Below, in pieces: positions 3,901 to 23,980 of a stretch of 64,000 nucleotides of DNA. The notes beneath the pieces were generated by a model. That model was not told where the DNA came from, did no database searches, and saw nothing but the letters and a program-made list of their open reading frames with translations. The DNA lies in NCBI GenBank assembly GCA_964016885.1, contig OZ024744.1, positions 102,238,001 through 102,302,000 of the forward strand, read 5' to 3'. The translations under genes and the position numbers were made by a program. Each line of letters begins with the position of its first letter. Positions within the stretch are counted from its first letter, which is position 1. This DNA comes from Eledone cirrhosa. Taxonomy: Eukaryota.

Positions 3901-4077
3901 CTAATTAGAACATATCTCTAGAACTAATTAGAACATACTACATCTCTAGACCTAATTAGAACATACTACATCTCTGGACCTAATTAGAACATAGTACATC
4001 TCTAGACCTAATTAGAGTATACTACATCTCTAGACCTAATTAGAACATACTACATCTCTGGACCTAATTAGAACATA
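994..4077. repeat. 28-bp minisatellite (CTCTAGACCTAATTAGAACATACTACAT)n with 23- and 25-bp variants
   Basis: Directly visible tandem array of roughly 110 units. Confidence 0.97.
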
Positions 4078-4370
4078 AGTCAATGTAGTCAATAGGACGA
4101 TATTAAGTGTTGGCTTCTCATCTTCTGAAAGAATCCCTGTCATACTTAATGGGGAGATTCTGTAAAAAGTTGATCAATTCAAGTATCTTGGCACCAAAAT
4201 ATCAGCAATGCTCTGGGGTCAATTTAATTGACCTTCCCCTTCCCCTCAAACTGTTGGCGTTGTGCCTATATTAATAACCATTATTTGAAATATAAATAAA
4301 TCAACTTTTAAAAGGAAACAATATTGAAGCCATTTCCCTATATACATGCCCTCACTAATTCATTACATAC

Positions 4371-4430
4371 CTGGTTTTATTAAGCCACAGCATTCTTTAC
4401 AATGTGGGATCTCATCGTTGAAAATTTTCT
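4371..4430 (-). CDS. SIRT2: Sirtuin-2-like exon 9 ((E)KIFNDEIPHCKECCGLIKP), second Zn-binding CxxC
   Basis: ttttctacag acceptor, gtatg donor, 60 bp, phase 1/1; resembles SIRT2 EKIFSEVTPKCEDCQSLVKP. Confidence 0.9.
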
Positions 4431-4776
4431 CTGTAGAAAAGATAATTTAAAGATAAAATTTATAGAAGTTTGATTGAAATTAGATTAAAGTTACTGAAAT
4501 ATCTATTTTTAAGATACTAAAACTTGGAATATCTTTATATTACCTCAATGATCCAAATAATTTGCATATTTATTGAGAAAATTCTATGTGAAATAGTTCC
4601 ATTTAGAAATCATGACTTTGCTTAATTATCTCATTAACACTTCTTTTGTGAACAGTAACAAATGTCAATTTATTATCTTCAATCAAAACTGTAAACTTGA
4701 TAGCTACGCTCAAACAAGACATGGTTAAGCTCAAATGCAGAGCTAAGAGACAACCTTACTGTATTTGATACATTTA

Positions 4777-4996
4777 CCGTATATACTTGAATATAAGCTG
4801 ATCTGAATATAAGCACCCCCAACATCACCCTTCTATTTTATGTCTGGGAAATGGGTAAAAACCCAAACCCCATTTATAAGCCAAGGTAGCTAATCAACAC
4901 ATTATGTTTAGATGGTGTATATAAGCCAACTTTACCATTTTACAATAAATTTTTTGGGGGTCACATATTCCTCAGCGTACATTCGAGTGTGTAAGG
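4777..4996. mobile_element. Tc1/mariner(pogo)-type MITE
   Basis: TA-CCGTATATACTTGAATATAAGC left end, decayed complementary right end; related copies at about 12847-13043 and 21771-21971. Confidence 0.6.
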
Positions 4997-5023
4997 AAGC
5001 TATATATAAATTTGAGTGACTTC

Positions 5024-8000
5024 CGTCACACACTAGAGATGACTGAGGAAAGAAGGGGTGATGACGTCACACACTAGAGATGACTGAGGAAGGAAGGGGT
5101 GATGACGTCACACACTAGAGATGGCTGAGGAAGGAAGGGGTGATGACATCACACGCTAGAGATGACTAAGGAAGGAAGGGGTGATGACGTCACACACTAG
5201 AGATGACTGAAGAAGGAAGGGGTGATGACGTCACATACTAGAGATGACTGAGGAAGGAAGGGGTGATGACGTCACACACTAGAGATGACTGAGGAAGGAA
5301 GGGGTGATGACATCACACGCTAGAGATGACTAAGGAAGGAAGGGGTGATGACGTCACACACTAGAGATGACTGAGGAAGGAAGGGGTGATGACATCACAC
5401 ACTAGAGATGACTGAGACTGAGAAAAGAAGGGGTGATGACGTCACACACTAGAGATGACTGAGGAAGGAAGGGGTGATGACGTCACACACTAGAGATGAC
5501 TGAGGAAGGAAGGGGTGATGACATCACACGCTAGAGATGACTAAGGAAGGAAGGGGTGATGACGTCACACTAGAGAGGACTGAGGAAGGAAGGGGTGATG
5601 ACGTCACACACTAGAGATGACTGAGGAAGGAAGGGGTGATGACGTCACACACTAGAGATGACTGAGGAAAGAAGGGGTGATGACGTCACACACTAGAGAT
5701 GACTGAGGAAGGAAGAGGTGATGACATCACACGCTAGAGATGACTGAGGAAGGAAGGGGTGATGACGTCACACTAGAGAGGACTGAGGAAGGAAGGGGTG
5801 ATGACGTCACACACTAGAGATGACTGAGGAAGGAAGGGGTGATGACGTCACACACTAGAGATGACTGAGGAAAGAAGGGGTGATAACGTCACACACTAGA
5901 GATGACTGAGGAAGGAAGAGGTGATGACATCACACGCTAGAGATGACTGAGGAAGGAAGGGGTGATGACGTCACACTAGAGAGGACTGAGGAAGGAAGGG
6001 GTGATGACGTCACACTAGAGAGGACTGAGGAAGGAAGGGGTGATGACGTCACACACTAGAGATGACTGAGGAAGGAAGGGGTGATGACGTCACACACTAG
6101 AGATGACTGCGGAAAGGGGTGATGACGTCACACACTAGAGATGGCTGAGGAAGGAAGGGGTGATGACATCACACGCTAGAGATGACTAAGGAAGGAAGGG
6201 GTGATGACGTCACACACTAGAGATGACTGAAGAAGGAAGGGGTGATGACGTCACACACTAGAGATGACTGAGGAAGGAAGGGGTGATGACGTCACACACT
6301 AGAGATGACTGAGGAAGGAAGGGGTGATGACATCACACGCTAGAGATGACTAAGGAAGGAAGGGGTGATGACGTCACACACTAGAGATGACTGAGGAAGG
6401 AAGGGGTGATGACATCACACACTAGAGATGACTGAGACTGAGAAAAGAAGGGGTGATGACGTCACACACTAGAGATGACTAAGGAAGGAAGGGGTGATGA
6501 CGTCACACTAGAGAGGACTGAGGAAGGAAGGGGTGATGACGTCACACACTAGAGATGACTGAGGAAGGAAGGGGTGATGACGTCACACACTAGAGATGAC
6601 TGAGGAAAGAAGGGGTGATGACGTCACACACTAGAGATGACTGAGGAAGGAAGAGGTGATGACATCACACGCTAGAGATGACTGAGGAAGGAAGAGGTGA
6701 TGACATCACACGCTAGAGATGACTGAGGAAGGAAGGGGTGATGACGTCACACTAGAGAGGACTGAGGAAGGAAGGGGTGATGACGTCACACACTAGAGAT
6801 GACTGAGGAAGGAAGGGGTGATGACGTCACACACTAGAGATGACTGAGGAAAGAAGGGGTGATAACGTCACACACTAGAGATGACTGAGGAAGGAAGAGG
6901 TGATGACATCACACGCTAGAGATGACTGAGGAAGGAAGGGGTGATGACGTCACACTAGAGAGGACTGAGGAAGGAAGGGGTGATGACGTCACACACTAGA
7001 GATGACTGAGGAAGGAAGGGGTGATGACGTCACACACTAGAGATGACTGAGGAAAGAAGGGGTGATGACGTCACACACTAGAGATGACTGAGGAAGGAAG
7101 AGGTGATGACATCACACGCTAGAGATGACTGAGGAAGGAAGGGGTGATGACGTCACACACTAGAGATGACTGAGGAAGGAAGGGGTGATGACATCACATA
7201 CTAGAGATGACTGGGGAAGGAAGGGGTGCTGACGTCACATACTAGAGATGACTGAGGGAGGAAGGGGTGATGACGTCACACACTAGAGATGACTGAGGAA
7301 GGAAGGGATGATGACGGCACATACTGGAGATGACTGGGGAAGGAAGGGGTGATGACATCACATACTAGAGATGACTGAGGAAGGAAGGGGTGATGACATC
7401 ACATAGTAGAGATGACTGAGGAAGGAAGGGGTGATGACGTCACATACTGGAGATGACTGAGGAAGGAAGAGGTGATGACGTCACACACTAGAGATGACTA
7501 AGGAAGGAAGGGGTGATGACGTCACACACTAGAGATGACTGAGGAAGGAAGGGGTGATGACGTCACACACTAGAGATGACTGAGGAAGGAAGGGGTGATG
7601 ACGTCACACACTAGAGATGACTGAGGAAAGAAGGGGTGATGACGTCACACACTAGAGATGACTGAGGAAGGAAGAGGTGATGACATCACACGCTAGAGAT
7701 GACTGAGGAAGGAAGGGGTGATGACGTCACACACTAGAGATGACTGAGGAAGGAAGGGGTGATGACATCACATACTAGAGATGACTGGGGAAGGAAGGGG
7801 TGCTGACGTCACACACTAGAGATGACTGAGGAAAGGGGTGATGACATCACATACTAGAGATGACTGAGGAAGGAAGGGGTAATGACGTCACACTAGAGAG
7901 GACTGAGGAAGGAAGGGGTGCTGACGTCACATACTAGAGATGACTGAGGAAGGAAGGGGTGATGGTGTCACACACTAGAGATGACTGAGGAAGGAAGGGG

Positions 8001-8333
8001 TGATGACGGCACATACTGGAGATGACTGGGGAAGGAAGGGGTGATGACATCACATACTAGAGATGACTGAGGAAGGAAGGGGTGATGACATCACATAGTA
8101 GAGATGACTGAGGAAGGAAGGGGTGATGACGTCACATACTGGAGATGACTGGGGAAGGAAGGGGTGATGACATCACATACTAGAGATGACTGAGGAAAGG
8201 GGTGATGACATCACACACTAGAGATGACTGAGGAAGGAAGGGGTGATGACGGCACATACTAGAGATGACTGGGGAAGGAAGGGGTGATGACATCACATAC
8301 TAGAGATGACTGAGGAAGGAAGGGGTGATGACA
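5024..8333. repeat. 41-bp minisatellite (GTCACACACTAGAGATGACTGAGGAAGGAAGGGGTGATGAC)n
   Basis: About 80 tandem units. Higher-order block duplication: the same GACTGAGACTGAGAAAAG variant occurs at about 5410 and 6430. Confidence 0.97.
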
Positions 8334-8371
8334 AACTACAGAAAACAGTGTCTAACATTCACTACACTTGC

Positions 8372-8722
8372 GTATGAGTGTATGTGTATGTTTGTGAGGA
8401 AGTATGTGTGTTTGTGAGGATGTATGTGTGTATTTGTGAGAACGTATGTGTGTATTTGTGAGGATGTATGTGTGTATTTGTGAGCATATATGTGTGTATT
8501 TGTGAGCATATATGTGTGTATTTGTGAGCATATATGTGTGTATTTGTGAGAACGTATGTGTGTATTTGTGAGAACGTATGTGTGTATTTGTGAGAATGTA
8601 TGTGTGTATTTGTGAGAATGTATGTGTGTATTTGTGAGAATGTATGTGTGTATTTGTGAGAATGTATGTCTGAGTGTATTTCTGAGAATGTATGTCTGAG
8701 TGTATTTTTGTAAGTGTGTCTG
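8372..8722. repeat. 22-bp minisatellite (GTATGTGTGTATTTGTGAGAAT)n
   Basis: Visible tandem array. Confidence 0.9.
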
Positions 8723-8875
8723 TGTTTGTACATATATATTTATACACTCATATACATGCCAGCGTATTGAAAAAATATTCTATGTTTTTAAATTTCAGTA
8801 AAATATACTTATGTCAACTATCAGATAAGGACTAGAATTGAGAATTATTTGTATAATATCCATTCTAAGCCTTAC

Positions 8876-8999
8876 CTTTAATCCATTCTAAGTCATATTC
8901 ATGCTTGCAATTTACGCAATGACTTGTCTGGAATGTTCCATGCCCTTCAACAATTTTTTCCATATCAATCCCAGCCATTCTCTCTAATCCATCAACATT
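8876..8999 (-). CDS. SIRT2: Sirtuin-2-like exon 8 (NVDGLERMAGIDMEKIVEGHGTFQTSHCVNCKHEYDLEWIK)
   Basis: attctag acceptor, gtaag donor, 124 bp, phase 0/1; NxDxLE motif, catalytic HG, first CxxC. Confidence 0.93.
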
Positions 9000-9262
9000 C
9001 TAGAATTGAATAGAAACATCATCATCATCACCACCATTACCATCACCAGTTTGTAAGATTGTTTATATACTTGGTAAAGACCCCCCCACTTCAGTCATGA
9101 ATAACCATGGGATTTGCATCGAGGCACAAGTCCGGGCATGGCAAGGTTGTTTTATGGAAGACCAGCAGTCGCCCATGCATACCAGTCTCTCCTCTCCACA
9201 CCACCAATGTTGTCCAAGGAAAAGGCAAAGGCCAATACAACTTGGCACCAGTGATGTCCTAA

Positions 9263-9401
9263 CTCATTTCTACAGCTGAGTGAGCTGGAGCAATGTGAAA
9301 TAAAGTGTCTTAATGACACAATGCATCACCAAGTCCGAGAATCGAACTCACAACTTCAGAATTACAAGCCCAATGCTCTAACCACTAAGCCATATGCCTT
9401 C
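9263..9401 (-). mobile_element. tRNA-derived SINE family 1, diverged head and central domain
   Basis: Reverse complement of the SINE head seen at 28222, 41717 and 61181. Confidence 0.75.
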
Positions 9402-9404
9402 ATG

Positions 9405-9442
<38 letters not shown>

Positions 9443-9602
9443 TATATACACACACATATATATGAGCATCATCATCATCATTATAGGTCCATTTTTCCAC
9501 GGTGGCATGAGTTAGACGAGTTGTCTTGTTGTGGGCAATGTTAGGTCAGGTGACCATATTTTGCTCATACAGAACTGAAAAGCGGACATAAAATGATGAT
9601 GA

Positions 9603-9664
<62 letters not shown>

Positions 9665-9910
9665 AAAATTAAGATAAATCAAATGAATTTAATCTAAATC
9701 AAAATTATGGGTGTCATGCCAGAAAGACATGCGGCATATCACCCGTAAAATAAGCTCTAAGATTCTAACGAGTAGATCCGAGCATTTTATAATAACTAGA
9801 GATTGATTAACATATAAATAAACATGAATAATCACAGTAGATAATTTTTACAAGTGTATAACCACACATAGATATAGATATATAAATATGGATACAGATA
9901 TATTGGATAT

Positions 9911-9937
<27 letters not shown>

Positions 9938-9944
<7 letters not shown>

Positions 9945-10302
9945 AAAAAAAGATGAAATCGAAAATGCAACTGGAGTCTTATTTTTTTTTTAAATATATA
10001 TATTTATTTGGTTACTTTACCGGTTTCGCAGTTCTTCTGCTTTTCAAAAGTAGAGTTGAGATGGAGGGTCTGTGGTTTTTCTCACATCTGATGTGAGAAA
10101 AACCACAGACCCTCCATCTCAATTCTACTTTTGAAAAGCAGAAGAACTGCGAAACCGGTAAAGTAACCAAATAAATATATATATTTTTTTTTTAAATAAG
10201 ACTCCAGTTGCATTTTCGATTTCATCTTTTTTTCTTTATACTTTCACTCGTGTAGGACACCTCGGTTATTTTTCATTTTGTAAAAAAAAACTCACTTTCT
10301 AA
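9938..10302. mobile_element. Fold-back Penelope-like mini-element (about 150-bp arms, centre 10089) in (TA)n
   Basis: Near-perfect palindrome 9938-10088/10090-10240 plus a unique right tail; hammerhead motif in each arm. Confidence 0.75.
10126..10165 (+). ncRNA. Minimal type-I hammerhead ribozyme, U3-A8 core variant (mirror copy at 10013-10052, minus)
   Basis: TACTT-TTGAAAA-GCAG(AAGAA)CTGC-GAAA-CCGG-TA-AAGTA: 5-bp stem I, 4-bp stem II, palindromic stem III, GUA cleavage triplet. Confidence 0.72.
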
Positions 10303-10778
10303 TATATAGATATATATATAGATATAGATATATATATAAATTGGATATAGATATATAAATACGGCTCCTTAATTGTAGAGTTAACTCTGTTGAAAGGACT
10401 CGACTGCTGTTTCTAGTTGTCGATAACCCTATTCACGCCACTGGAACGAAGCTAGTATGATGTGTGTATTTCTAGTAAATACTACACATGTTGGCCAGTC
10501 ACTGATTTGAACTTGAAGTGTAAACACGGATTGCTGGAAACTTCTTCCTTGTTGATAATTCAAGTCTCCACTTCTGTGGTTTACCATCCGATTAATTGGT
10601 GAAATATATTTCTTTAATGGAATATATACAGGGAAGATTAATCATATTATAAGGTATCTATTTTTGAAGTTCTGGTCAACTTTATTTAGTTACCTACCTA
10701 GCTATGTGTGGTTACACACTTGTAAAAATTATCTCCTGTGATTATTCATGTTTATTTATATGTTAATCAATCTCTAGT

Positions 10779-10814
<36 letters not shown>

Positions 10815-11420
10815 TATACCAGGATTACTGGGTACATATATATATATATATATATACCCAGTAATCCTGGTATATATGAGATACCAATCCTTGAATCTAA
10901 TAAGTAGATATATTCAACTGTCATTATTGGAGGCATAGATGCATTAGTTGTTTAATAATTACAATAAACAACAAATTATGTATATTTATAATTGCTGTCA
11001 TAAAACATAATACTGTAAAAGTGTCAAAGTACATAGGTGTATTTTGTTTCTTATGCTGTTGCTTTTTAGATCCAGTCAACCTCGAACAAGACATTCCAGC
11101 CATGGCCATCTTATCTTTTTTTTCTATGTATGGTATACTCACGACTGTGTTATTTTATCCAATAATGATAGAATGTAATTTGAGGGAAATTTGGCTGATA
11201 TTTCTAGCAAGTCAATCGACCACATTGAAATTCCATTTTTTAGAGTTTTCTACAAGTGTTCAACTCTTTCAAATGATTTTCATAAATAATTATATAGAAC
11301 CTAATTACAGGGACCCTAATAATTTAAAATGTTAATGTATATTTACTATTCAGTCCAATGTTAGCCATTACTTAAAAGAAAATTGTTGGTTATTTGGTAA
11401 CCAACACAGTCAGAACCTAC

Positions 11421-11489
11421 CTGAGTAAAATGACGAAGGAGTATTCCTTTCTCATTGAGTAATTTCAGAAAATAGTGTGCAAGGGTTGG
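11421..11489 (-). CDS. SIRT2: Sirtuin-2-like exon 7 (PTLAHYFLKLLNEKGILLRHFTQ)
   Basis: Polypyrimidine tract + cag acceptor, gtagg donor, 69 bp, phase 0/0; resembles SIRT2 PTICHYFMRLLKDKGLLLRCYTQ. Confidence 0.93.
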
Positions 11490-11600
11490 CTGAAGTAGAA
11501 AAAAAAATGGAAAAAGAAAAAGTAAATAATAAGGAAACCATTGATTGAACTTGGTCACATATACATGTATGTATGTATGTATGTGTATAAATATATATAT

Positions 11601-12021
11601 ATAATTCAAAATGTTAACAAATGAAAAATATTCTCATAATCAAAATATATACTTTATTATATATATTTCAAAGGTACTGTGTTGTTTTTTCAGTACATCC
11701 TCATCAGACAAAATATATGATTTGATATATGACACACTGCTACGTTCTTGATTATTCAATTCCAGTACTGCCAATACTGGAATTGAATAATCAAGACTGC
11801 AGCGGTATGTCATATATCAAATCATATATTTTGTCTGAAACAACACAGTACCTTTGAAATATATATAATAAAGTATATATTTTGATTATGCGAATATTTT
11901 TCATTTGTTAACATTTTAAATAATATTAAAAACTCCAGGAAAACCTTGACTGTTGAGTGCTTCTAATCTATTGTAAAATTGTATTCGTTGAGTAATCAAC
12001 GAACCATACTAATCTTTGGTT
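11601..12021. mobile_element. Fold-back element (arms about 11608-11767/11775-11917 plus tail) in (TA)n; same family as 60913-61172
   Basis: Long imperfect inverted repeat; the left arm has a CTGATGA...GAAA remnant on the minus strand. Confidence 0.65.
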
Positions 12022-12041
12022 ATATATATATATATATATAT

Positions 12042-12846
12042 TTCATTGCACGTCCCTGAACATTTTCCAGGAGATCCATATTCTGAGCAAGATAGGGGTT
12101 CCAGACTGGTGATGCAAATTCTAAGTGTGGACACACCATAGCTATATACAGTTTTAAATAGATAGCTGGAGAGTGGCTGACAGAGGTCTTACTGAGTGAT
12201 TCTATAATACCCTTGGCCTTCTTAACAATTTTATAGAAATGCTTTGTCCAATGAAAATCGTCGTTGACATAATGCCCACGTCACGTTCACAAGAAGACTT
12301 CTTGATATTAGTGTTGTGGAGGGAGTATGTGGACGCTGGGTTTTGACTCCCAAAATGCATGGTGGTACACTTGTTCACAGCCAACATGAGTTGCTAGTCC
12401 GTGATCCATTATTGCATAGCGTCCAGGTCTGATTGCAGGAAAGATCTATGGTGTTCAGGATCTGTCCTTTTTATCTCAAGGTACAGCTTGATGTCATCTG
12501 CATATTTCAGTACTGTGGCATTCTTTAAGTTGGCATCTATGTCATTAATATATACCACAAATCCCTGCTGTACACCAGATGTCATCTCATAGGGTGAAGA
12601 ATGCTGTCCTAGAACCGTGACTACCTCTTTTCGACTGACAATGAAGGACTTCAACTAGTTATAAAGATCATCTCTCACACTCATTGCAAAGAGTTTTGCC
12701 ATAAGTCTTTTGTGTGGCACAGTATTAAAAGCTTTAGCAAGGTCAAGATAAATAACATCCACCCATGAGCCACCATAGTGATTCAGGTAATGTCTTCAAG
12801 AAACTCAGAGTTGATCACAGCAGCTGGAGTTAGGGATAAATCCAAA
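12042..12846 (-). mobile_element. CR1/L2-group LINE RT fragment (decayed)
   Basis: Translates to VDVIYLDLAKAFNTVPH, SGVQQG and KYADDIKLY...LQSDLDAMQ. Confidence 0.85.
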
Positions 12847-13206
12847 AGCAGATCCAAATATAAGTCGACACCCCAACCCCCCTATTTTATGTCTGGAAAA
12901 TGGGTAAACATCCAAATCCCATTTATAAGCCCAAGCAGCTAATCAACACATTATGTTTAGATGGTCTATATAAACTGAGCGCACCGCCATTTTACCATCA
13001 ACTTTTTTTTTTGTCACAAAATCCTTGGCTTATATTTGAGGTAACTTTGAGCATATTTACTTATCTACTTGATATTAGTGAATTCTAATACTACAATATT
13101 GTGTGTGTGTGTGTGTGTGTGTGCATGCGCGCGTGTGCATGCATGTGTGTATGTGTGTACGTATAGCCCCCACCCAAACACAGAGTGGCATTAATTATTA
13201 ACTTAC

Positions 13207-13263
13207 CTTCAAAGTGGAAGGCCATATACTTTTAATAAGCTTGTAGAATGGTTCAGGAAATTC
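13207..13263 (-). CDS. SIRT2: Sirtuin-2-like exon 6 (EFPEPFYKLIKSIWPSTLK)
   Basis: tttttacaaag acceptor, gtaagt donor, 57 bp, phase 0/0; PEPFY motif. Confidence 0.9.
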
Positions 13264-13397
13264 CTTTGTAAAAAAATATATGAATGTGCACTATAAGATA
13301 TACAAGATCTATATTTACATTACATGTAGGATTATTATTTGACGAATATCTTCTTAAATGAATTTTCTTGATAGCTACAATTCAGATATATTGGATC

Positions 13398-16144
13398 TGT
13401 AGCAACCTACATTCCGAGGGCTCATGGATACATTCTCCATACGTTGTCTGGCTCAGTTCAGCCAATCACTACCAGCGTTGGGAGATGTATCTCAACTTCT
13501 GCCCAGAGGGAAAAATTCCCACTTCTTTTCGATAAATTCTCTCTTGCAGCTCGACACCGTGAAGGTAAACATCTCTTGATTTCGTTCCTCAAGCATAGAC
13601 AATATGTAGCAACAAATATCACTACGAGTCTGGCTAACGCCTCAGCCAGTTGACCGTACCTCCTTAAGCTCTTAATTTGTCTATTCACTTCTCTTGGTAT
13701 GCCAGCTAAACCTTTAATCGGTTTGTAAATAAATTATATATTATAAACATTACAAGTCGTATGATGCTATTTTCCACAACATTGCTTTTAACATCTTCAA
13801 TGGTGACTTCTGTGATACAATACACAAATACATACATTCTCAACACATAAATAATATGTATCATCTATTAACTTCTTCCAAAATACTTATTTCTAAATTG
13901 GTGACCCCGCCGAGGGAACGAAAAGTTCCCCTAAAAAAAGATAAGAAGTAGTAGTTTTAAAAAGAGAACACGCAAGCGTTTTGGTATTGTATTGTATCAA
14001 AACCATCTAAAAACATTTCTTGTTGATTAAACATCACATGGTTCATCTTCCATGAACCCGCCTGAGAAAACATTCTTTGAAAAAAAGAAAAATTAGCTGA
14101 ATTTTAAAAAATTACAGCGAGAGGAAAAAATTATTTTCTTTCAACATGACAACATCAACAAAACTTTCAGCAGCAGCAGCACATTTGGTTAGCCACTAAC
14201 CATAAACAGGGAACAACGATGTGGCACCTTTATTGTCTTACCGACGCAACCCACCACACCTTCTCATATTGTTTACTTCTATACTTCACCTATTCTATCG
14301 TCTCTGTCATTATAACCGCTACAACTTCTCACTGTCTCGCTACAATGGTGACTCGAGAATTAAAACAACAACAACCTTCTCACTACAAATGGTGATCCGA
14401 GTTAAAACAACAGCAGCCTTCTCACCACATAATTGTGAATTCGCTTCAACGCTCGACTTCGATTCTATTGATCATTTACTGTGACTTTGCTTTGATAACA
14501 AGAACTCTACTAGCTTCCTAGTAAGAACGAGAACATTCTTATCCCAAAGAAAAGAAAAATTGAATTTTTTTTTTACAGGCAATGTTTCAACATTTATTTC
14601 TTTTAAACTGTATAATATGAACATTCATTTTTTCTATCATTGTATATATGACTGCACGCTCACATTTTCTTTGCTGTATTACATGCCTGTATATGCACAC
14701 ACATTTCTTTGTCACACACCAACATGTTGTTGTCTATAGTATATATTCTTCAAATGTCGTAATATTCTGCAAGATCCCTTTTAACCTGGTTGAGGTACCG
14801 AAACATGCTATTGACACATGCACCTTAATTCGCCTGGATTCAAACAGGACCACAACACGAGAACTGATAATCGCAGCTGGATTCAAACAGCTTCGTATCT
14901 CGTTGCACACTCATCGTCCTATAACATAAAAACCTCAATCTTGTTACTTTACCCGATTCACTGGCAAAGCATTCATGGAACTGGACCTGCCACCAGTTCC
15001 CTCTGTTTCTCCGATGGACTCACCAGAATTACGGGATTACAGCTTCAACTACTACCCACCTACAGATTCAATTTTTTGCTTTCAAAGCAACTTTAGCCAT
15101 TTATTCTGGCTGCCTAGCACTTTCGGCAATTCATATGGGAGGCTGACAATTTCTCGCCTACCCATCATCATCTTGCCAGCTCTGGTACAACACTTACCAC
15201 AACAGCTACACAGCTCTAGTACAACATTTACTATAACAGCTACACAACTCTGGTACAACACTTACCATAACAGCTACACAGCACTTAATGCAAGAACAGC
15301 AACTTTTCCCATGTCAGACTTTATCCATTTTTTGTTAGACCTCGGGTGGTCATGCATAAATAGCAAAACAGCTAGTCATTTGACACAGCGGCTCAACAAG
15401 GCCTTTAGCACCTCACTTTTCTTCTATGTCAGACTTTATCCATTTTCTGTTAGACACCGGGTAGTCACGTTTAAATAGCAAAACAGCTAGTCATTTGATA
15501 CAGCAGCTCAACAAGGCCCTTAGCGCCTCACTTTTCTTCTTGTATGCATTCTTTTCAATTTTTTCATTGATGTGCTCTCTTTCAGCGTTTTCCTGATAAT
15601 TCAATCTTATGTATAGTCTTCCAGGCTAAATAGGGCGTATTGTAGCGACCTACATTCCGAGGGTTCATGGATACATTCTCCGTACGTTGTTTGGCTCAGT
15701 TCAGCCAATCACTACCAGCGTTGGGAGATGTATCTCGACTTCCGCCCTGAAGGAAAAATTCCCCGCTTCTTTTCGATAAACTCTCTCTTGCAGCTCGACA
15801 CCGTGAAGGTAAACATCTCTTGATTTCGTTCCTCAAGCATAGACAATATGTAGCAACAAATATCACTACGAGTCTGGCTAACGCCTCAGCCAGTTGACCG
15901 TACCTCCTTAAACTCTTAATTTGTCTATTCACTTCTCTTGGTATGCCAGCTAAACCTTTGTAATCTGTTTGTAAATAAATTATATATTATAAACATTATA
16001 AAGTCGAATGATGCTATTTTCAACAACATTGCTTTTAACATCTTCAATGGTGACTTCTGTGATACAATACACAAATACATACATTCTTAACACATACATA
16101 ATATGTATCATCTATTAACTTCTTCCAAAATACTTATTTCTAAA
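13398..16144 (+). mobile_element. Non-autonomous LTR retroelement: LTRs 13398-13897 and 15641-16144, tRNA-Trp-like PBS, GATC target-site duplication
   Basis: Two about 500-bp direct repeats, about 96% identical by eye. TGGTGACCCCG at 13899-13909; GATC on both flanks; no gag/pol motifs in the 1.74-kb interior. Confidence 0.9.
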
Positions 16145-17137
16145 GATCCACTTATGAAATAGAAAACTCAATCTCATTTCCATTTATCATAATGGAAAAC
16201 AATTACAACAGTAGATGGAACAAGTGAATGTGTGCTTATAAGTTAGTTGTTATGGTTGGACAAATTTGTTTTGGATGTGATATAAGTACCAAAAATATGT
16301 AGAGATAACTAGGAATGACAAAGAATGGAAATATTATTAGTTTTTCTAGTTTATATTAAGCAAAGTTTAGACTAATTATAATTAGAATACTTAGTCCCAC
16401 CCTTGCAAGCATGGAAAAGCAGACATTAAATGATGATGATGATGATGTAACAAACTGCTGTTCACTAAAAAAAAAATACAGAGCTGTTTATTTTGAAATA
16501 TGATATCTATAATTTTTAAAGTTTTAAGAAGTTTACTATTTACATATGTTTGCATATGTTTCCAATTTCATAGCAAATTCAAGGCTTTTGAAATGTTTAT
16601 TTATAAACATACCATATATCGCCAGATATACAAATTCAAGTACTTCATATAGAAAGCTATGTTAGAGTTAATGCCCTTATTTTATTTTCCGGCCAAGCCA
16701 GCTGATAGATCTATATGTAAATGCGGCTGATCAGTCCATGTACATAGGGTTCTAAACTATGTTTTTGTCTATGTTAAGTTCCAGCAGTAAGCAGGTCAAG
16801 GAGCTCTAGCTTGATAATGACCAGAGTCAGAAATGATGACATCATTATCGCTGATTAACTATCCTTAACTTCTGCTGGAACACACAAGATGGTGCTATGC
16901 TATCAGTTTCCAAATTCATAGCTGAAGGCTTTCAAAATGTTTATTTATAAACATACCGTATATCACTAGATATACAAATTCGCATATTTCATATACAAAG
17001 CCATGTTAGAGTTAACACCCTAAAAATAAATACATTATGTCCTGAAATAAACAACATTTAAAAAAATAAATATTTGAAGAAATAATTATAAAGGAGACAA
17101 AATATGTCAAATATAAATATCACCATGTGAACATTAA

Positions 17138-17343
17138 CCCTTTAGCATTTGAACCGGGCATATCCAGCCAGAATTCTCTCACCTCTTTCTGTTCAAACTG
17201 GCTATAACTGACCACTCATACCGACGTTAAAGTATTATTTTCCAAATAAATAACATCAAGATTTGATATTATGAGATAATTATGTTAAAGTGTTTACCAT
17301 GAAAATACAATAGTATATATAGAGTAATGTAAATGCTAAAGGG
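17138..17343. mobile_element. piggyBac-type MITE copy 1
   Basis: TTAA-CCCTTTAGCATTT...AAATGCTAAAGGG-TTAA. Confidence 0.85.
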
Positions 17344-17426
17344 TTAAATATAAATGTCACTATGTGAACATTAAATAATAAACTAATCTACATTAATATG
17401 AATATTTGTAAAATTTACTGATTTAC

Positions 17427-17533
17427 CATAAAATAATTGATATCAAAAATTGCTTGTGGGTGGGGAAGATTGTATTTTTCTAAATTAGCATATAAACCCG
17501 TCACTGGTCTTCGGAAGTCAGGGATTCCAGCAG
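17427..17533 (-). CDS. SIRT2: Sirtuin-2-like exon 5 ((A)[35 protein letters not shown])
   Basis: tatttag acceptor, gtaaat donor, 107 bp, phase 1/0; GIPDFR motif; lies in ORF 17415..17612. Confidence 0.95.
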
Positions 17534-17699
17534 CTAAATAAATAAATAAAAATAAGATAAATAGAAGAAAAATAAATTGAGTTTTGAAATAAAGAATATT
17601 TTTCATGAACAATTAAAGATGGAGAATATATATTATTTCATATCTTTTAGCAATTTTTTGCAATTAGTTACAAATAGTTACACCCAGTCCACACTAAAG

Positions 17700-17961
17700 T
17701 GATCATGCAGGTATCACGACAAAAAGCACCCAGTCCACACTGTAAAGTGGTCGTGTAGGAGACATGGTAAAAAGGCTCTCAGTCCACACTGTAAATGTGG
17801 TTGGTGTTAGGAAGGGCATCCAGCTGTAGAAAACCTGCCAGATACAGTCCTATATGAGCGAGACACAGTCACCCGATCAATCTTGCCTCAACTGGGACAA
17901 TTCCTGCTAACCCATGCTAGTATGGAAGATAGTTGTTAAACAATGATGATGATGATGATGA
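17700..17961 (+). mobile_element. RTE 3'-UTR/tail fragment ending in (GAT)n
   Basis: GGAAGGGCATCCAGCTGTAG module, CCATGCTAGTATGG hairpin and GAT tail. Confidence 0.8.
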
Positions 17962-18251
17962 TGGCGGTGATGAATTCTTAAAGTCCTGTGCCACATGAAT
18001 CCACATTGGCAAGATGTTAAAATATACAAAACAACACTATGACTGCATCACATTAAAAATTGCAGTCTTTAATTTAACACTGCATATTTTCACAACAATC
18101 CCTTCAGTAATAAAGATACTATAAACATTTGAATTGACAAACCTGTTTTTATATATCTTCTAAACACTAGGCAAAAAGTTACTGGATAGCAATAACAGAG
18201 AAGAAGTATTGTGAAATTACAACTGGTTTTTGTTTAGAGACATATGTTTAA

Positions 18252-18467
18252 CCCTTTAGCATTTAAACCGACTGCATCCGGCCAGAATTCTGTCACGTCT
18301 TTGTGTTCAAATTGGCTGTAACTGGCTACTCATACTAGTGTTAAGGTATTGTTCTCAAAATAAATAATATCAAAATCTCAGATTCGATATTATGTGAGAT
18401 TAAGTGAGGTAAAGTGTCTCCCATGAAAATATAATAGTATATATAGAGTAATGTAAATGATAAAGAG
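18252..18467. mobile_element. piggyBac-type MITE copy 2
   Basis: TTAA flanks; same TIR and internal sequence as 17138. Confidence 0.82.
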
Positions 18468-18772
18468 TTAATGGTATGAACATATGATGACTGTAGATGG
18501 AAGTTAGCAAAGAAGAGGGTCATGTAATCATCATCATCATCATCTAATGACTATTACCTATGCTTACATGGGTTAGACTGGTTGTCATATTATGTAGCTA
18601 AACAGTTAAGATAACAACATCTTGCATATACAATGTTTTGGGCTTAGTTTTCTATGGCTGGATACCCTTCTTAATGCCAACCACCTTACAGGCTGCACTG
18701 GATGCTTTTTAACCAACCTTACAAGGAGGACTGGGTACTTTTTTTTTTATGTCACCAGTATGATCACTTTAA

Positions 18773-18990
18773 CCCTTTAATGTTCAAAGCGGCCAAAACC
18801 GGCCAGAATTCTCTACCTCTTTCTGTTGAAACTGGCTGTAACTGGTCGCTCAAACTGATGTTAAGGTATTGTTCTCAAAATAAATACTTTCAAAATCTCA
18901 TAGATTCGATATTATGTGAGAAATATGTGAGGTAAAGCCTTTACCATGAAAATATAATAGTATATATAGAGTAATGTGAATGCTAAAGGG
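18773..18990. mobile_element. piggyBac-type MITE copy 3
   Basis: TTAA flanks, same family. Confidence 0.82.
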
Positions 18991-19209
18991 TTAAAGAGTG
19001 GACCAGATGCTTTAGCTGTGGCTCAAACACAACCACATGTATATATTATGTATTTATAGATTGTGCATCATTGAAATCATAACTAAATATTTATATTTCA
19101 AAATATTTTATAGGTTTGTCTCTGGTTTAGAGAATTCCCAAAATATTTATTAAAAGAAATACTCAATAACAGAAATGGTAGAATGATCACAGACAAAAAT
19201 GTGACCTAC

Positions 19210-19356
19210 CTGTACATAATCCAGCTCCAGCTAATGTTATGATATTTTTACATTTACCATTTTTAATATATTGAGCTACACCTTCAATAGATAGTTCACT
19301 GAGAACTTGCTCTGAGCTGAGGCTCAAGTTTTCAAATAGGTTGCGAAGCCAAGAAC
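19210..19356 (-). CDS. SIRT2: Sirtuin-2-like exon 4 ((S)SWLRNLFENLSLSSEQVLSELSIEGVAQYIKNGKCKNIITLAGAGLCT)
   Basis: ctttttcag acceptor, gtagg donor, 147 bp, phase 1/1; SIRT2-type LRNLF and L..L.IEGVA.YI helices, GAG motif. Confidence 0.92.
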
Positions 19357-20138
19357 CTGAAAAAGGAGTTGATTAATTATTTGAACATAGCAATTAATGA
19401 AGGATGGTCAAACAATCAAATATTTAGTCAAGAGTTTAAAATTTAAATGTTATTGATTAACCCTTTTAATATCAAACAACCTGAAACTGCTCTTGCTTTT
19501 ATGATACAAAATTGCTGGTTTTAAAGTATACTCTTTTACCTGCTCCAGCCATCCGGCTGAGGCCATTTATCTTCTTTGCTCCCTTATTCCTGGGATCATT
19601 GGGAGGGGCCCTATTTCTCGACAGAGCTGTTCTGCCAGAGAATGGGTCAAAAGTGGCAGTCAGCGATAGTCACCAGATATGATGATTAGTTGCGATATAA
19701 GAGGGTTCCTGATGGACAAATAAGCAACCCTGGACCAACAGCTGTAAAGTACTAGAGGAGATGGAGCAATGGGTGGAACAGTTAGCTCCCAAGAAAACTC
19801 AGACAACTCAGTGATGTAGCTATGATGAGGCTAGTAAAGGCTGCCTATAAAAATGCCTTGCCTTCGGGGGTCTGAGAAAAATACCAAATTGGTGACTGGC
19901 ACAAATAAGACCACCAAAAGCTACAGTAGCGTTAGATACAATAAAAACATTCATACCATATCATACTTTGAGTGGGGTAACAAGGGATGTGTTCAGGCTT
20001 TTAGTAGAGGGGCCTGTTTGAAAAATATATCATAATCTCCATCTGACACTGTGAGAACTGGCGATGGGCCTGCAACATGCCCTGGGAGATGTGGTATGGA
20101 CGCTTATATTTATGAAAAAACCTTTCATCATAATTTTA

Positions 20139-20630
20139 TACTAGAAAAATCATAATAATAATGAAATTATTGTGTACAGTACTCAAGTGCACTACAACTC
20201 ATCAAAGGTGCATGTATAGTACATATAATAATATACAAATGTCAGGAAAGTGAACAGTGTATGAGCCATGATATACATGTGTGGATGTGTATGGAGGGAG
20301 GATATCAGGTGTAGTGTTGGGGAATCTCAGGAAGCATTGAGGCTTTAAAGGATGCAGTGTCTCGACAGCTAACAACTGATGCAGGTAGTTTGTTCCATGA
20401 TTCAGCAACTCTGAGCATGAAAAAATGTTTCCGAAAGTCATGGGAGCTGTGCTGTTTTCTGACTTTGTAGGCACGCCCACATATGTTAGACACATGGAAT
20501 TCAAAATGGTACTCAGGGTTGTTGTTGGCAAGATGGTTAACAATTTTGTGGGTGTTTACCAAGAAATTCTTCATGATATTCAATTATTTGAAGACGAAAT
20601 GCAGTATCTTTCATTAGAAACACGGTAACG
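20139..20630 (-). mobile_element. CR1-group LINE 3' end
   Basis: ORF 20305..20583, RKHFFMLRVAESWNKLPASVV, typical of the CR1/L2 C-terminus. Confidence 0.8.
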
Positions 20631-20650
20631 ATAAAGTTAAATTAATATTC

Positions 20651-20731
20651 TTGATACATCAGGTTTCCCTTGATACATCAGGTTTCCCTTGATACATCAG
20701 GTTTCCCTTGATACATCAGGTTTCCCTTGAT
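20651..20731. repeat. 19-bp tandem repeat (TTGATACATCAGGTTTCCC) x4
   Basis: Four perfect units. Confidence 0.95.
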
Positions 20732-20868
20732 GGTTGGAGAAAACTTGTGGCCTATGTTTCCGAGGGGACGAGGGTTCCAAGGTAAAACTGAAAAACTAAA
20801 CAGGTGGTACTGCATGTGTTCTATAGAGTTGAGGCATAACTATTGCTGGCTGAAAACCGTTTACTTAC

Positions 20869-20896
20869 TTGTACTGCCAGGATGTGGCCCATCAAC
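20869..20896 (-). CDS. SIRT2: Sirtuin-2-like micro-exon 3 (VDGPHPGST)
   Basis: tctattgtag acceptor, gtaagt donor, 28 bp; phase 0/1 exactly bridges the flanking exons. Confidence 0.65.
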
Positions 20897-22321
20897 CTAC
20901 AATAGACAAATTTCTTTCGATTCAAAATTTTGTTAAAAAAATACGTTCTGAAACAAATTTGAAAACACTATATTAACATTTTATGCCCCTATTTATATGG
21001 AAGAGATATAAAAAGTAAAATGTTTATAAATATATCTTTACCCACTTATTCCTGAGAGGGTCGTGGGGGAAGAGTCCTCAAACACTCCTACCAGAGGGTC
21101 CTGTCAGAAGCAACCATCTTCAAGCTAATCGGGTTGGATCCCCAAGAGAGAGACCAACCAAGCTCATTGATGTTATCCAACCATCTTGCTCCAGGTCTAC
21201 CCCTGCGTCTCTTGACATTCTAACCACATGCCCATAGTATCGGAGCTGTAATCTCTCAATTCAGAGAAGTGGCGAGTCTTTGATCTTCAAGCTACACGCT
21301 ATAATGTAATGTTACTCCAAAGACTCTACAGGAGGAACCCCATTTCAGCCGCTTATAATTCTTGAATTAAATTCAGTAGAGACATGACCAATGATCATGC
21401 TAGTAGGAGAAAAGACAGTTTATCAGAAATTTACATTTTGAAAGAATCAGATGCAAAGCGATTTAATTATTGCACTTCATTATATAAACAAACGTATTAC
21501 AAATAACACATGGGAGAGAACTCCGATAATTTACTCAACAAAAACATGGGTGAGTATTGTAATTATTCTCGAGTCCCAAGTACCAGAGGGAAGGGGACTA
21601 AGCAGGGCATGTGGAATATTTTAATTTTCTTTAGACGTTAAAAAACATTATACATGGCAATAAAGTACATTACTAGAAATCCTATATGCTATAAAATACA
21701 TTGGATGGGTTGGGAACTCAATAATTCTGGTTTTTAAAAAATATCAACTGAGACAACCTAGAAAAATTAAGCAGATCCGAATATAACCCCTACCTCACAT
21801 ATTTTATGTTTGTGAAATAGGCAAAAATCCAATCCCCATTTATAAGACAAGGCAGCTAGACTAATCAACCCATTTTTTAGATGGCGTATATAAGCCAACC
21901 CCCATCACCACCATTTTACTATCGATTTTATGGTCACATATTCCTCAACTTACATTCAAGTATATACGGTAGATGGTAGAAGAGAGCTATGAATACCGAG
22001 AGATAATGGGAAAAGATGAAATCTCAAAAGCAGGAGAACTAAAATAATGTTAAAGAAATGATTTTTTACAATCTAATTGCAATGATTACAGACAGATCTT
22101 TAGAAAAAAAATAACTGTATTTATAGTACAGATAATGTTTAGTTATTATATATATATATATATATATATACATATATATACACACACACGTGTGAGTATG
22201 TGTGTATATATATACATATGTGTATATGTTTACATATGTGTGTGTGTGTGTGTATATACATATGTGTATATATATATATATATATAAATGTGCATGTGTA
22301 TATATACATACATATGTATAC

Positions 22322-22650
22322 ATGATGGCTGCAACTTGATTTCGAGTAATGCCATTGCTTGATACTTAAGAATGGGCATCACAGACGTGGCTTTTTAGTC
22401 CAGCTAGGGACTTGCCTATGGCCAGCAATACCATGCATCGCAAATAATGTCATATCAAGCAATGCCTGTGCTTGAAGCTTTTTTAAGTGATGAATGGCTT
22501 TACACACGGCCAATCCCACTCTCTGAACAGTGGATGCCTTTACCCAAAAAGAAGAACTGGTCTACATATTGAATACAAATGAAGTCGCAGGTTTTATACC
22601 AAAGTGACGACTTCAAGAGAGATGTCTTAATAAAGACTAGGGGTCTCTCG
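22322..22650 (-). mobile_element. RTE (BovB-like) LINE 3' fragment
   Basis: 3' end ...GCAGCCATC similar to the copy ending at 48398; decayed RPLVxLRHL...WPxASPxLD coding remnant. Confidence 0.6.
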
Positions 22651-23244
22651 CTCCACAAAAAAAAAAAAAAAAAATGAAAAAAATATGAAACAACATGGAA
22701 GATAAAGTCTCTCTGACATGTCTAGCATAACAACCTGTCCAACCCATACCAGCATGGATAGGGAACACACACACACTCACACACTAGTTTGAGTCCCATC
22801 AGTGAACCTGATTCTTTTTTCTGTCTCAAACTAGTGCTTATAATATCCAATGGATGCATGGCCCCATGACTCCTAAGGGTGTCGTAGAGGCACCATATAG
22901 ACATATGCATTTCTAGGGCATTTTAAAACCTGACGGAGCCCATCCCCCTCACCAGGTCTGAATACAGTAGATTTCTTCCAGAGAATGATAGAGAGCTTGA
23001 GAGAATGGAAGAAAGAGATAGAGAGGAATAATTGACCCCAGAACTAGACTGGTACTTATTTTATCGACCTTGAATAGATGAAAGGCAAAGTTGCTCTCAG
23101 TGGAATTTGAACTCAGAGTGCCAAAATGAATACTGCAAAGCATTCTATTCGACGGTCCAACAACTGCCAATTCGCTGCCTTCACAATATCCAATAGCATG
23201 TTTGAATATGTTTATATCTATAAAATTTACTCTAACATCATTAA

Positions 23245-23854: not shown

Positions 23855-23980
23855 CTAATTGTAAAAAAAAAAAAAAAGAAAAAATTGAAAACTGCATAAT
23901 AAGCACCAGATAAGCCCTTTTGGTATCAACCCACCCAAAACTACTACTGATTCTATAAAAACAAAAAAACAACATTTTAA

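What the first reader, a model, noticed from the sequence alone, without database searches (positions are those of the whole stretch)
10013..10165. Mirror pair of U3-A8 covariant hammerheads inside a sirtuin intron
Seen: the core is UUGAAAA instead of CUGANGA, so the C3-G8 tertiary pair is replaced by U3-A8. Stems are perfect (UACUU/AAGUA, GCAG/CUGC), stem III is the palindrome ACCGGU, and the site is GUA. The motif is present on both strands because the element is a near-perfect palindrome with about 150-bp arms and a 1-nt spacer. Known: U3-A8 is a tolerated natural variant. Inference: the minus copy is sense to the sirtuin pre-mRNA and could cut it, but the long hairpin should mask it, giving a self-silenced ribozyme that A-to-I editing or co-transcriptional folding might unmask.
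Basis: partly seen in the sequence, partly recalled or inferred. Interest (0 to 1): 0.72.

Follow-up and report, generated by a model that had tools for sequence, protein, structure and literature searches.

The report
Penelope retroelement stub carrying hammerhead motifs
The mirror-image stretch is a back-to-back insertion of the short end piece of a very abundant Penelope-like jumping gene, and its hammerhead motif, of a type already described for such elements, is likely an inert passenger in this sirtuin intron, so the finding is real but ordinary.

Summary
A palindrome (arms 9938-10088 and 10090-10240, 1-nt centre) carries an identical 40-nt type I hammerhead-like motif on each strand (10126-10165 +, 10052-10013 -). 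The core is UUGAAAA (U3-A8), helix I has 5 bp, helix II 4 bp, helix III is the palindrome ACCGGU, and the site is GUA. It lies between two SIR2-domain exons on the minus strand.

It is not a special device of this gene. The arm is the 3' end of a Penelope-like retrotransposon (reverse transcriptase plus C-terminal GIY-YIG endonuclease). The motif's 35-nt core occurs 10,700 times in this genome. 645 loci share the window's palindrome axis, and 13 of 13 palindromes examined pair one long arm with one short arm. The flanks are (TA)n-type microsatellite. These are published hallmarks of Penelope-like insertions. The U3-A8 hammerhead variant and opposite-strand motif pairs were reported for Schistosoma Penelope-like elements in 2014.

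The axis sits 71 nt upstream of the predicted cut, 30 nt after a TATAAAA box. Only 4 loci have an axis at the cut. At this locus the motif is buried in a hairpin of about -230 kcal/mol and has no same-sense partner in the window. No RNA data were available. Verdict: new member of a known kind, low to moderate interest.

The parts
9867..9937 (.). Left flank: (GATATA)n/(TA)n microsatellite, the insertion target. 9867-9923 resembles 10305-10361 in direct orientation, so this may be a target-site duplication (uncertain).
   Evidence: family D8; local alignment score 69 against 18.8 +/- 3.7 for shuffles; low-complexity caveat.
9938..10089 (-). Short arm: Penelope-like element stub in minus sense, unit positions -1 to 151. 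It ends at ...TTTCTTTAT and runs into (TA)n. Base 10089 is the A just before unit position 1.
   Evidence: 42 of the first 50 listed same-axis loci have the same 1-nt A/T centre.
10013..10052 (-). Hammerhead-like motif (U3-A8), minus-strand copy, sense to the sirtuin gene. Predicted cut between 10018 and 10017.
10090..10305 (+). Long arm: Penelope-like element stub in plus sense, unit positions 1 to about 216. It ends at ...CTCACTTTCTAATAT and runs into microsatellite.
   Evidence: In L035 and L010 the same end is followed directly by the 5' end and ATG of a full element, which is the pLTR arrangement.
10126..10165 (+). Hammerhead-like motif (U3-A8), plus-strand copy. Predicted cut at 10160|10161.
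10241..10305 (+). One-sided 'tail': about 65 nt present only on the long arm.
   Evidence: 13 of 13 resolved palindromes pair one long arm with one short arm. This fits the tail and the two reverse-transcription start sites described for Penelope-like elements (PMC8557442; PMC11167929).
10306..10361 (.). Right flank: (TA)n/(GATATA)n microsatellite.
8868..8999 (-). Sirtuin exon (SIR2 profile positions 85-124).
17418..17612 (-). Open frame holding a sirtuin exon (SIR2 profile positions 7-43).

Best explanation
The 303-bp palindrome is a head-to-head pair of short 3'-end copies ('stubs') of a Penelope-like retrotransposon whose motif occurs more than 10,000 times in this genome, inserted in a (TA)n-type microsatellite between two sirtuin exons; its two hammerhead motifs are the family's own U3-A8 hammerhead, which at this locus is likely an inert passenger.

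Shown directly:
- In at least two loci the long form of the arm sits directly in front of the 5' end and ATG of a full element, which is a pseudo-LTR (pLTR).
- Head-to-head pairs are the rule and tail-to-tail pairs are rare.
- Every resolved palindrome has one long and one short arm.
- The axis is fixed at unit position -1/+1 in 645 loci.

Inferred:
- Position -1/+1 is the transcription start of a promoter in the pLTR. TATAAAA lies at -30 to -24, and CCA(+1)GATG resembles an initiator.
- The stubs would then be complete cDNA copies of a roughly 250-nt RNA running from that start to the element's 3' end.
- The element's endonuclease would cut both strands of the (TA)n target, and each DNA end would prime reverse transcription at a different one of two internal start sites (long or short). 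The two cDNAs would run to the RNA 5' end and be joined head to head.
- The stubs lack the promoter, so they are dead on arrival.
- In a transcript the hammerhead would lie at +37 to +76 of the leader. It needs a second same-sense copy to build helix III.
- In the sirtuin pre-mRNA it is paired with its own antisense arm and is predicted not to fold.
For: Family size:
- 49 matches and 568 first-look candidates for the arm.
- 10,700 exact copies of the 35-nt motif core (5,391 forward, 5,309 reverse), with 0 for the reversed-pattern control.

Penelope-like identity:
- tblastn of a 511-aa RVT_1 + GIY-YIG frame hits L031 7732-8978, directly upstream of the arm's 3' UTR, at 38-53% identity.
- L035 holds arm(long) - ATG - frames of 332, 334 and 415 aa - 3' UTR - arm.
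- The 415-aa frame has GIY-YIG (E 3.5e-5) and weak RVT_1 (E 0.0023, below Pfam's cut-off), and contains YLDD. It is 48% identical to the 511-aa frame.

Architecture:
- Of 29 places found by DNA search, 7 are close palindromes, 2 are wider head-to-head pairs and 20 have no head-to-head partner.
- Among the first 100 listed motif matches there are 15 close (-,+) pairs and 7 wider (-,+) pairs. There is only 1 (+,-) pair within 5 kb, and 2 same-strand pairs lie 3-5 kb apart.
- Long plus short arms: 7 of 7 and 6 of 6.
- Axis at position 1 in 645 loci, against 4 loci with an axis at the hammerhead cut.
- TATAAAA and the initiator-like site are read.

Literature (passages read):
- Inverted 5'-truncated copies, a one-sided tail and a (TA)n target bias: PMC8557442.
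- Cleavage and extension of both strands, two internal reverse-transcription start sites matching the tail, and hammerhead cleavage not required in vitro: PMC11167929.
- Hammerheads in pLTRs with short palindromic helix III that act as dimers, the U3-A8 variant, and motif pairs on opposite strands 100-700 bp apart: PMC4209133.

Inertness here:
- Hairpin of -229 to -234 kcal/mol against -7.1 for the motif alone.
- No other family copy in the window.
- Private changes hit the core as often as the flanks (0.8% against 1.4%, p = 0.40, 38 arms).
Against: - No RNA evidence of any kind. No RNA run was listed and only contigs could be laid.
- No Rfam hammerhead hit, although the control shows Rfam also misses a canonical minimal motif.
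- The transcription-start reading rests on sequence motifs and on the clustering of 5' ends only.
- The clade of the element was not placed by phylogeny.
- The second-largest subfamily (4,117 copies) has an A.G mismatch in helix I. The motif is therefore not uniformly well paired, and catalytic competence is unproven.
- An alternative origin by cDNA snap-back is not excluded.
Confidence: 0.85

Rival explanations
1. One reading: a self-silenced ribozyme that can cut the sirtuin pre-mRNA when A-to-I editing or co-transcriptional folding frees the minus-strand copy from the hairpin.
For: The minus-strand copy is sense to the gene. The motif is intact. The 5' arm is transcribed before its complement, so a short time window exists (inference). 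A perfect 150-bp intronic duplex would be an editing substrate where ADAR exists (established knowledge, not tested here).
Against: The motif cannot form helix III alone and needs a second same-sense copy (PMC4209133). There is none in the 64-kb window. In the pre-mRNA the minus-sense motif lies in the 3' arm (10052-10013 is transcribed after 10240-10090), so its antisense partner is already present when it emerges. The locus is one of 645 same-axis insertions. Inserted copies decay neutrally. Hammerheads of this class cleave poorly even as dimers in vitro (PMC4209133).
Confidence: 0.03
2. The motif is not a working ribozyme in this family. It would be a relic or a merely hammerhead-shaped sequence that the element carries without using its cleavage.
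For: No Rfam hit. Only 4 palindromes have their axis at the predicted cut, against 645 at position 1. 4,117 copies carry an A.G mismatch in helix I. Canonical C3-G8 is absent: 0 copies. Published work found hammerhead cleavage unnecessary for insertion in vitro and found no RNA-seq ends at the site in Anolis (PMC11167929).
Against: All core boxes, G10.1-C11.1, the GUA site and a palindromic helix III are present together, where chance gives 0.01 per window. The motif sits in the pLTR where such hammerheads are known. The double hammerhead is the cofold optimum (-21.7 against 2 x -7.1 kcal/mol). The core carries no shared subfamily variants (0.8% non-consensus against 2.6% in flanks, p = 0.01). 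U3-A8 keeps the 3-8 pair.
Confidence: 0.25
3. A class II fold-back element or MITE with long terminal inverted repeats, unrelated to retrotransposition.
For: Perfect palindrome, AT-rich target, and miRNA-hairpin-like Rfam scores below threshold.
Against: 20 of 29 places have a single arm that ends sharply at the palindrome centre. 14 arms continue inward into the 3' UTR and coding sequence of a Penelope-like element. The arms are unequal (long and short) in 13 of 13. The outer ends are not matched terminal repeats.
Confidence: 0.02
4. Assembly artefact (a falsely inverted duplication).
For: PMC8557442 notes that such structures trouble assemblies.
Against: The same axis occurs at 645 loci. The arms differ from each other at a few positions and in length. 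Contigs of other runs show the same junction types, though these are possibly from the same sample and so are not independent.
Confidence: 0.01

Closest known systems
Minimal / type I hammerheads in the pseudo-LTRs of metazoan Penelope-like elements (Cervera and de la Pena 2014, PMC4209133)
   Same: Type I topology. Short helix III with a palindromic sequence that implies action as a dimer. G10.1-C11.1 is present. The motif lies in the pLTR and occurs in very large numbers, mostly as single motifs or opposite-strand pairs 100-700 bp apart. The U3-A8 core variant was reported for the Schistosoma Cercyon element, with about 1,300 hits.
   Different: [quoted passage not shown] Helix II has 4 bp rather than 7-8. 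U3-A8 is here the only state of a family with about 10,650 exact copies (canonical C3-G8: 0 copies). The host is different.
Insertion anatomy of endonuclease-bearing Penelope-like elements (Craig et al. 2021, PMC8557442; Frangieh et al. 2024, PMC11167929)
   Same: Reverse transcriptase plus C-terminal GIY-YIG, pLTR by partial tandem, an inverted copy joined head to head, a tail on one side only, and a (TA)n target.
   Different: The tail is about 65 nt rather than 30-40. The inverted partners are not randomly truncated but share a fixed inner end (645 loci), which I read as the RNA's own 5' end. The clade (Hydra, Neptune or other) was not determined. The endonuclease copies I read lack a CxxC between GIY and YIG and have a C-x2-C linker.
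Metazoan non-LTR retrozymes (Cervera and de la Pena 2020, recalled; Li, Clavereau and Pollet 2026 preprint, abstract read)
   Same: Small non-coding units bearing a hammerhead and linked to Penelope-like elements.
   Different: No head-to-tail tandem arrays were seen: 0 close same-strand pairs among 100 listed matches. The unit is the end of an autonomous element and not a separate circular-RNA monomer.
Double hammerheads of avocado sunblotch viroid and newt satellite 2 (Forster et al. 1988, cited in PMC4209133; otherwise recalled)
   Same: Helix III is too weak in cis, and the active fold is built from two copies.
   Different: Those RNAs are made as same-sense multimers. At this locus the second copy is antisense.

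Membership tests
Hammerhead ribozyme, type I (metazoan / Penelope-like element class) | Core boxes C3-U-G-A-N-G8-A, G12-A-A and a N-U-H cleavage site | tested here: met
   UUGAAAA, GAA and GUA are read and found by the descriptor. Positions 3 and 8 are U and A instead of C and G.
Hammerhead ribozyme, type I (metazoan / Penelope-like element class) | Watson-Crick pair between positions 3 and 8 | tested here: met
   U3-A8 keeps the pair. Genome counts: U/A about 10,651, C/A 33, U/G 16, C/G 0. The variant is published (PMC4209133).
Hammerhead ribozyme, type I (metazoan / Penelope-like element class) | Helices I and II, with G10.1-C11.1 | tested here: met
   UACUU/AAGUA and GCAG/CUGC at this locus. 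In the family, position 2.4/1.4 reads C/G 6,009, A/G 4,117, A/U 32 (the window's type) and C/U 14, so helix I is imperfect in 39% of copies.
Hammerhead ribozyme, type I (metazoan / Penelope-like element class) | Helix III | tested here: inconclusive
   In cis only A-U plus a CCGG loop can form. Between two copies ACCGGU/ACCGGU gives 6 bp, and cofold of two 53-nt segments gives the double hammerhead as optimum (-21.7 kcal/mol). This matches the published dimer class.
Hammerhead ribozyme, type I (metazoan / Penelope-like element class) | Match to curated covariance models (Rfam) | tested here: not met
   No hammerhead family at E <= 10 in 9000-11500. Control: the canonical CUGAUGA minimal motif at 31133-31168 is also missed in a 501-nt search, so this test has little power for the class.
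Hammerhead ribozyme, type I (metazoan / Penelope-like element class) | Compensatory change in helices | tested here: inconclusive
   U at position 1.4 goes with A at 2.4 in 32 of 46 copies, against 41% A among G-carrying copies, but the copies are related. One arm (L024) has CCGG changed to TCGA, which keeps the palindrome.
Hammerhead ribozyme, type I (metazoan / Penelope-like element class) | Site-specific self-cleavage | not testable with these tools
   No RNA run was available. The genomic proxy (palindrome axis at the cut) gives 4 loci against 645 at position 1.
Penelope-like element | Reverse transcriptase with GIY-YIG endonuclease in one element contiguous with the repeat | tested here: met
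Penelope-like element | Pseudo-LTR by partial tandem, with the hammerhead inside it | tested here: met
   In L035 the long arm is followed directly by the 5' end and ATG, and the arm appears again at the 3' end 4.9 kb later. The same junction is seen in L010.
Penelope-like element | Inverted copy joined at the 5' side; tail on one side; microsatellite target | tested here: met
   with flanks.
Penelope-like element | Placement of the reverse transcriptase in a named clade by phylogeny | not tested
   No named reference sequences were at hand. The Atlas look-up gave only RT / GIY-YIG / HTH_animal clusters.
Metazoan non-LTR retrozyme | Head-to-tail tandem array of hammerhead monomers | tested here: not met
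   No close same-strand pairs among the first 100 listed matches; 2 same-strand pairs lie 3.1 and 4.9 kb apart.
MITE / fold-back DNA transposon | Element bounded by matched terminal inverted repeats, with copies sharing both ends | tested here: not met
   Single arms end at the centre, and the arms are unequal.

The most novel reading that the evidence does not exclude
This family leaves a genomic record of how Penelope-like elements copy themselves in vivo. The copied RNA begins at a start site defined by a TATA box and an initiator-like sequence, 71 nt upstream of the hammerhead cut (645 palindrome axes there against 4 at the cut). Uncleaved RNA is therefore the template, and the U3-A8 hammerhead does not make its 5' end. 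In addition, each double-ended insertion uses two different reverse-transcription start sites, one per DNA end (13 of 13).
Probability: 0.5. Interest if true: 0.5.

Novelty: new member of a known kind. Interest (0 to 1): 0.3.

Why it matters
For the sirtuin gene it probably matters little: the element is one more intronic retroelement stub, at most a long double-stranded RNA hairpin in the pre-mRNA.

For retroelement biology the family is a useful natural data set in three ways:
- A Penelope-like element has amplified to more than 10,000 motif copies with only the U3-A8 hammerhead core.
- Its palindromes have a fixed axis and fixed but unequal outer ends.
- Together these bear on open questions: whether hammerhead cleavage is part of the transposition cycle, where the template RNA starts, and how both ends of a break are used for priming. 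They agree with recent in vitro work on an Anolis element.

Tried and rejected
- Rfam at E <= 10 on 9000-11500: 51 matches, all hairpin-shaped miRNA-like or other families below their thresholds, and none a hammerhead. The control on 30900-31400 also missed a canonical minimal motif, so the miss carries little weight.
- RNA evidence: no RNA holder was listed. Four runs were laid. All are contigs. X8 and X11 cover the repeat at very high summed depth, X1 laid nothing, and X6 laid only on the low-complexity stretch 9975-10015. Nothing can be said on expression, ends or editing.
- Earlier findings by place (near) and by sequence: nothing.
- ESM Atlas: RT / GIY-YIG / HTH_animal clusters, not decisive for clade or host.
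- A relaxed motif scan of the 3' UTR of the second Penelope-like family in L031 (6700-7800) gave no hit. By eye it has UUGAAAA and GAAA boxes with a long insert, which I did not resolve.
- The single long arm folded as RNA is not unusually stable (z = +0.75), and the 51-nt motif alone has z = -1.1.
- The readings as a MITE and as an assembly artefact were rejected (see rivals).
- Exon search between the two SIR2 exons: I scanned 100 of 147 minus-strand open frames of 28 aa or more in 4000-24000 and found no exon for profile positions 44-84. The exact intron borders therefore remain unset.
Counts of helix III variants and a full 5'-end census could not be made.

Full report
**The observation**

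The stretch 9938-10240 is a near-perfect palindrome with a single central base, 10089. The inner 97 nt of the arms are 99% complementary and the outer 47 nt are 100% complementary. The arms differ mainly in a T/A run between these parts, so over 151 nt they are 94.7% identical. As RNA the region folds into one hairpin of -231.7 kcal/mol (z = -38.7).

On each strand the arm carries the same 40 letters, at 10126-10165 (+) and 10052-10013 (-). They read as a type I hammerhead:
- helix I UACUU/AAGUA;
- core UUGAAAA;
- helix II GCAG/CUGC with loop AAGAA;
- GAA;
- ACCGGU;
- A17, with the predicted cut after it.

I wrote a descriptor that accepts C3-G8 or U3-A8, helix I of at least 4 bp and helix II of at least 3 bp. 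It finds 0.01 hits per dinucleotide-shuffled window. A strict version finds 0 hits in 200 shuffles. The motif is therefore not a chance match.

Pfam SIR2 matches lie on the minus strand at 8868-8999 and 17418-17612. They place the palindrome between two exons of a sirtuin gene, with the minus-strand copy in sense.

**What it is**

The arm is a repeat. A DNA search of the window's own genome gave 49 matches at 91-100% identity from 568 first-look candidates, of which 40 were scored. The 35-nt motif core occurs 10,700 times exactly, and the reversed control occurs 0 times.

The 30 loci fetched represent 29 distinct places, since two of the loci are the window itself. They sort as follows:
- 7 are close palindromes like the window;
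- 2 are wider head-to-head pairs;
- 20 have no head-to-head partner.

An alignment of 38 arms (L012 and L015 left out) shows three kinds of inner end:
- 14 arms run on into conserved sequence;
- 8 start at unit position -2 to +3, directly after microsatellite or unique DNA;
- the rest meet a partner arm head to head.

The conserved inward sequence extends about 1.8-2 kb. In L031 it is homologous, at 38-53% protein identity with frame shifts, to a neighbouring 511-aa frame that has RVT_1 and GIY-YIG domains.

L035 holds a nearly complete element:
- the long arm;
- then directly the 5' end with an ATG;
- frames of 332, 334 and 415 aa, the last with YLDD and GIY-YIG and 48% identical to the 511-aa frame;
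- about 1.3 kb of 3' UTR;
- the arm again, 4.9 kb downstream.

This is the published organisation of a Penelope-like element with a pseudo-LTR.

**Match to the published anatomy of such insertions**

Craig et al. 2021 (passages) describe inverted truncated copies joined at the 5' side, a tail present at only one end, and (TA)n targets. Frangieh et al. 2024 (passages) show that an Anolis element cleaves and extends both DNA strands and starts reverse transcription at two internal sites whose spacing equals the tail.

The same features appear here:
- The flanks are (TA)n/(GATATA)n.
- Among the first 100 listed motif matches there are 22 (-,+) pairs, 15 of them within 325 nt. There is 1 (+,-) pair within 5 kb and no close same-strand pair.
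- Every palindrome whose two arms I could resolve pairs a long arm (ending ...CTCACTTTCTAATAT) with a short arm (ending ...TTTCTTTAT). This holds for 7 of 7 and 6 of 6. Two further pairs, L042 and L050, returned only one arm under my filter and were left out.

**The hammerhead in context**

Cervera and de la Pena 2014 (passages) report the following:
- Metazoan type I hammerheads have a helix III of 1-2 bp capped by a 2-4-nt palindromic loop and work as dimers.
- Such motifs sit in the pLTRs of Penelope-like elements.
- They cleave poorly in vitro.
- In Schistosoma a U3-A8 covariant core gave about 1,300 hits.
- Pairs on opposite strands 100-700 bp apart occur.

In my full-text searches only this paper holds the term U3-A8 together with hammerhead.

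Two 53-nt copies of the motif cofold into the double hammerhead as the optimum: -21.7 kcal/mol against 2 x -7.1 kcal/mol.

Within the family U3-A8 is the fixed state. The counts are C3/A8 33, U3/G8 16 and C3/G8 0 out of 10,700.

The perfect helix I of the window is a minority type. At positions 2.4/1.4 the counts are C/G 6,009, A/G 4,117, A/U 32 (this locus) and C/U 14.

In the 38 arms that were not fetched by a motif pattern:
- private changes hit the 13 core positions about as often as the flanks (0.8% against 1.4%, p = 0.40), as expected for dead copies;
- shared variants are absent from the core (all non-consensus 0.8% against 2.6%, p = 0.01), a weak sign of constraint on the source copies.

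**Where the copied RNA starts**

The palindrome axis is not random. 645 loci have both arms starting at GATGTGAG with 0-6 nt between them. Of the first 50 such loci listed, 42 have the same 1-nt A/T centre as the window.

In copies that continue inward, TATAAAA lies at -30 to -24 from the A before position 1, and CCA(+1)GATG resembles an initiator. I infer that this is the transcription start of a pLTR promoter. The stubs would then be complete copies of a roughly 250-nt RNA. This is untested.

Only 4 loci have an axis within 6 nt of the predicted hammerhead cut. The genomic record therefore gives no sign that cleaved RNA is the template. This agrees with the in vitro result of Frangieh et al.. 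It does not show that the ribozyme is inactive.

**This locus**

The arms start at -1/+1, so both lack the promoter. In the sirtuin pre-mRNA the sense motif lies in the arm that is transcribed second. Its full complement is therefore already present, and the window holds no second same-sense copy.

A cutting role is thus improbable. The masked state is simply what a head-to-head insertion gives. Editing or dicing of the hairpin is possible in principle but could not be examined.

**Earlier notes of this scan**

After I had formed this reading, a look-up showed that other agents had reached the same general conclusion for other families of this genome: Penelope-type stubs in (TA)n with one-sided tails. 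Those notes are leads, not support. I tested the one-long-one-short rule and the stub reading on this family myself.

**Verdict**

The hammerhead identity is supported as membership of a known class. The gene-regulatory interpretation is not supported. This is a new member of a known kind.

Noticed in passing
window 31133-31168 (+): A canonical minimal hammerhead motif: CUGAUGA, an extra A before helix II, GGAC/GUCC, GAAA, helix III ACGU, site GUU. It lies about 170 nt upstream of a 414-aa open frame (31339-32580) that is followed by RVT_1 fragments (32499-32966, 33678-34097). It is probably the pLTR of another Penelope-like element. Rfam did not detect it.
   Followed up: partly
window 16807-16853 (+); L011 454-498 (+); L020 2597-2640 (-): A second kind of U3-A8 motif with core UUGAUAA and site UC. 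Helices I and II differ between the three examples, and in the window copy helix III is a real 5-6-bp hairpin. This suggests several U3-A8 hammerhead families in this genome.
   Followed up: no
window 9788-9874 and 10699-10785; 10814-10877: An 87-nt inverted repeat (97%) brackets the palindrome off-centre, and a further small (TA)n-centred palindrome lies at 10814-10877, with miRNA-like Rfam scores below threshold. These look like nested fold-back insertions of other repeats.
   Followed up: no
window 9980-9993 and 10185-10198 (unit positions about 96-108): The T-run/A-run boundary differs between the two arms of the same palindrome (about T10-A3 against T2-A10). It does so in several other palindromes as well (L016, L027), although the rest of the arms is nearly identical. 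Unexplained.
   Followed up: no
window 9867-9923 and 10305-10361: Direct similarity of the two microsatellite flanks (48 of 58 aligned positions, including ATTGGATATAGATATATA). This may be a target-site duplication of about 55 nt or merely the periodicity of the target.
   Followed up: partly
L031 4523-6769 and 6772-7730: A second Penelope-like family: a 511-aa RT + GIY-YIG frame with CPNC inside the GIY-YIG core. It has an inverted truncated partner at 4523-5179. Its 3' UTR shares the box GAGCCAC-T-run-TATAAAA with the window's family and has UUGAAAA and GAAA boxes separated by a long insert.
   Followed up: partly
L024 1537-1576: One arm has helix III CCGG changed to TCGA, a double change that keeps the palindrome.
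   Followed up: no
window 39553-40260, 44287-45855, 56796-57773 (-), 12412-12795 (-): Other retroelement remains: frames with RVT_1 plus a PHD finger, a PHD-finger frame on the minus strand, and a reverse-transcriptase fragment inside the same sirtuin intron region.
   Followed up: no
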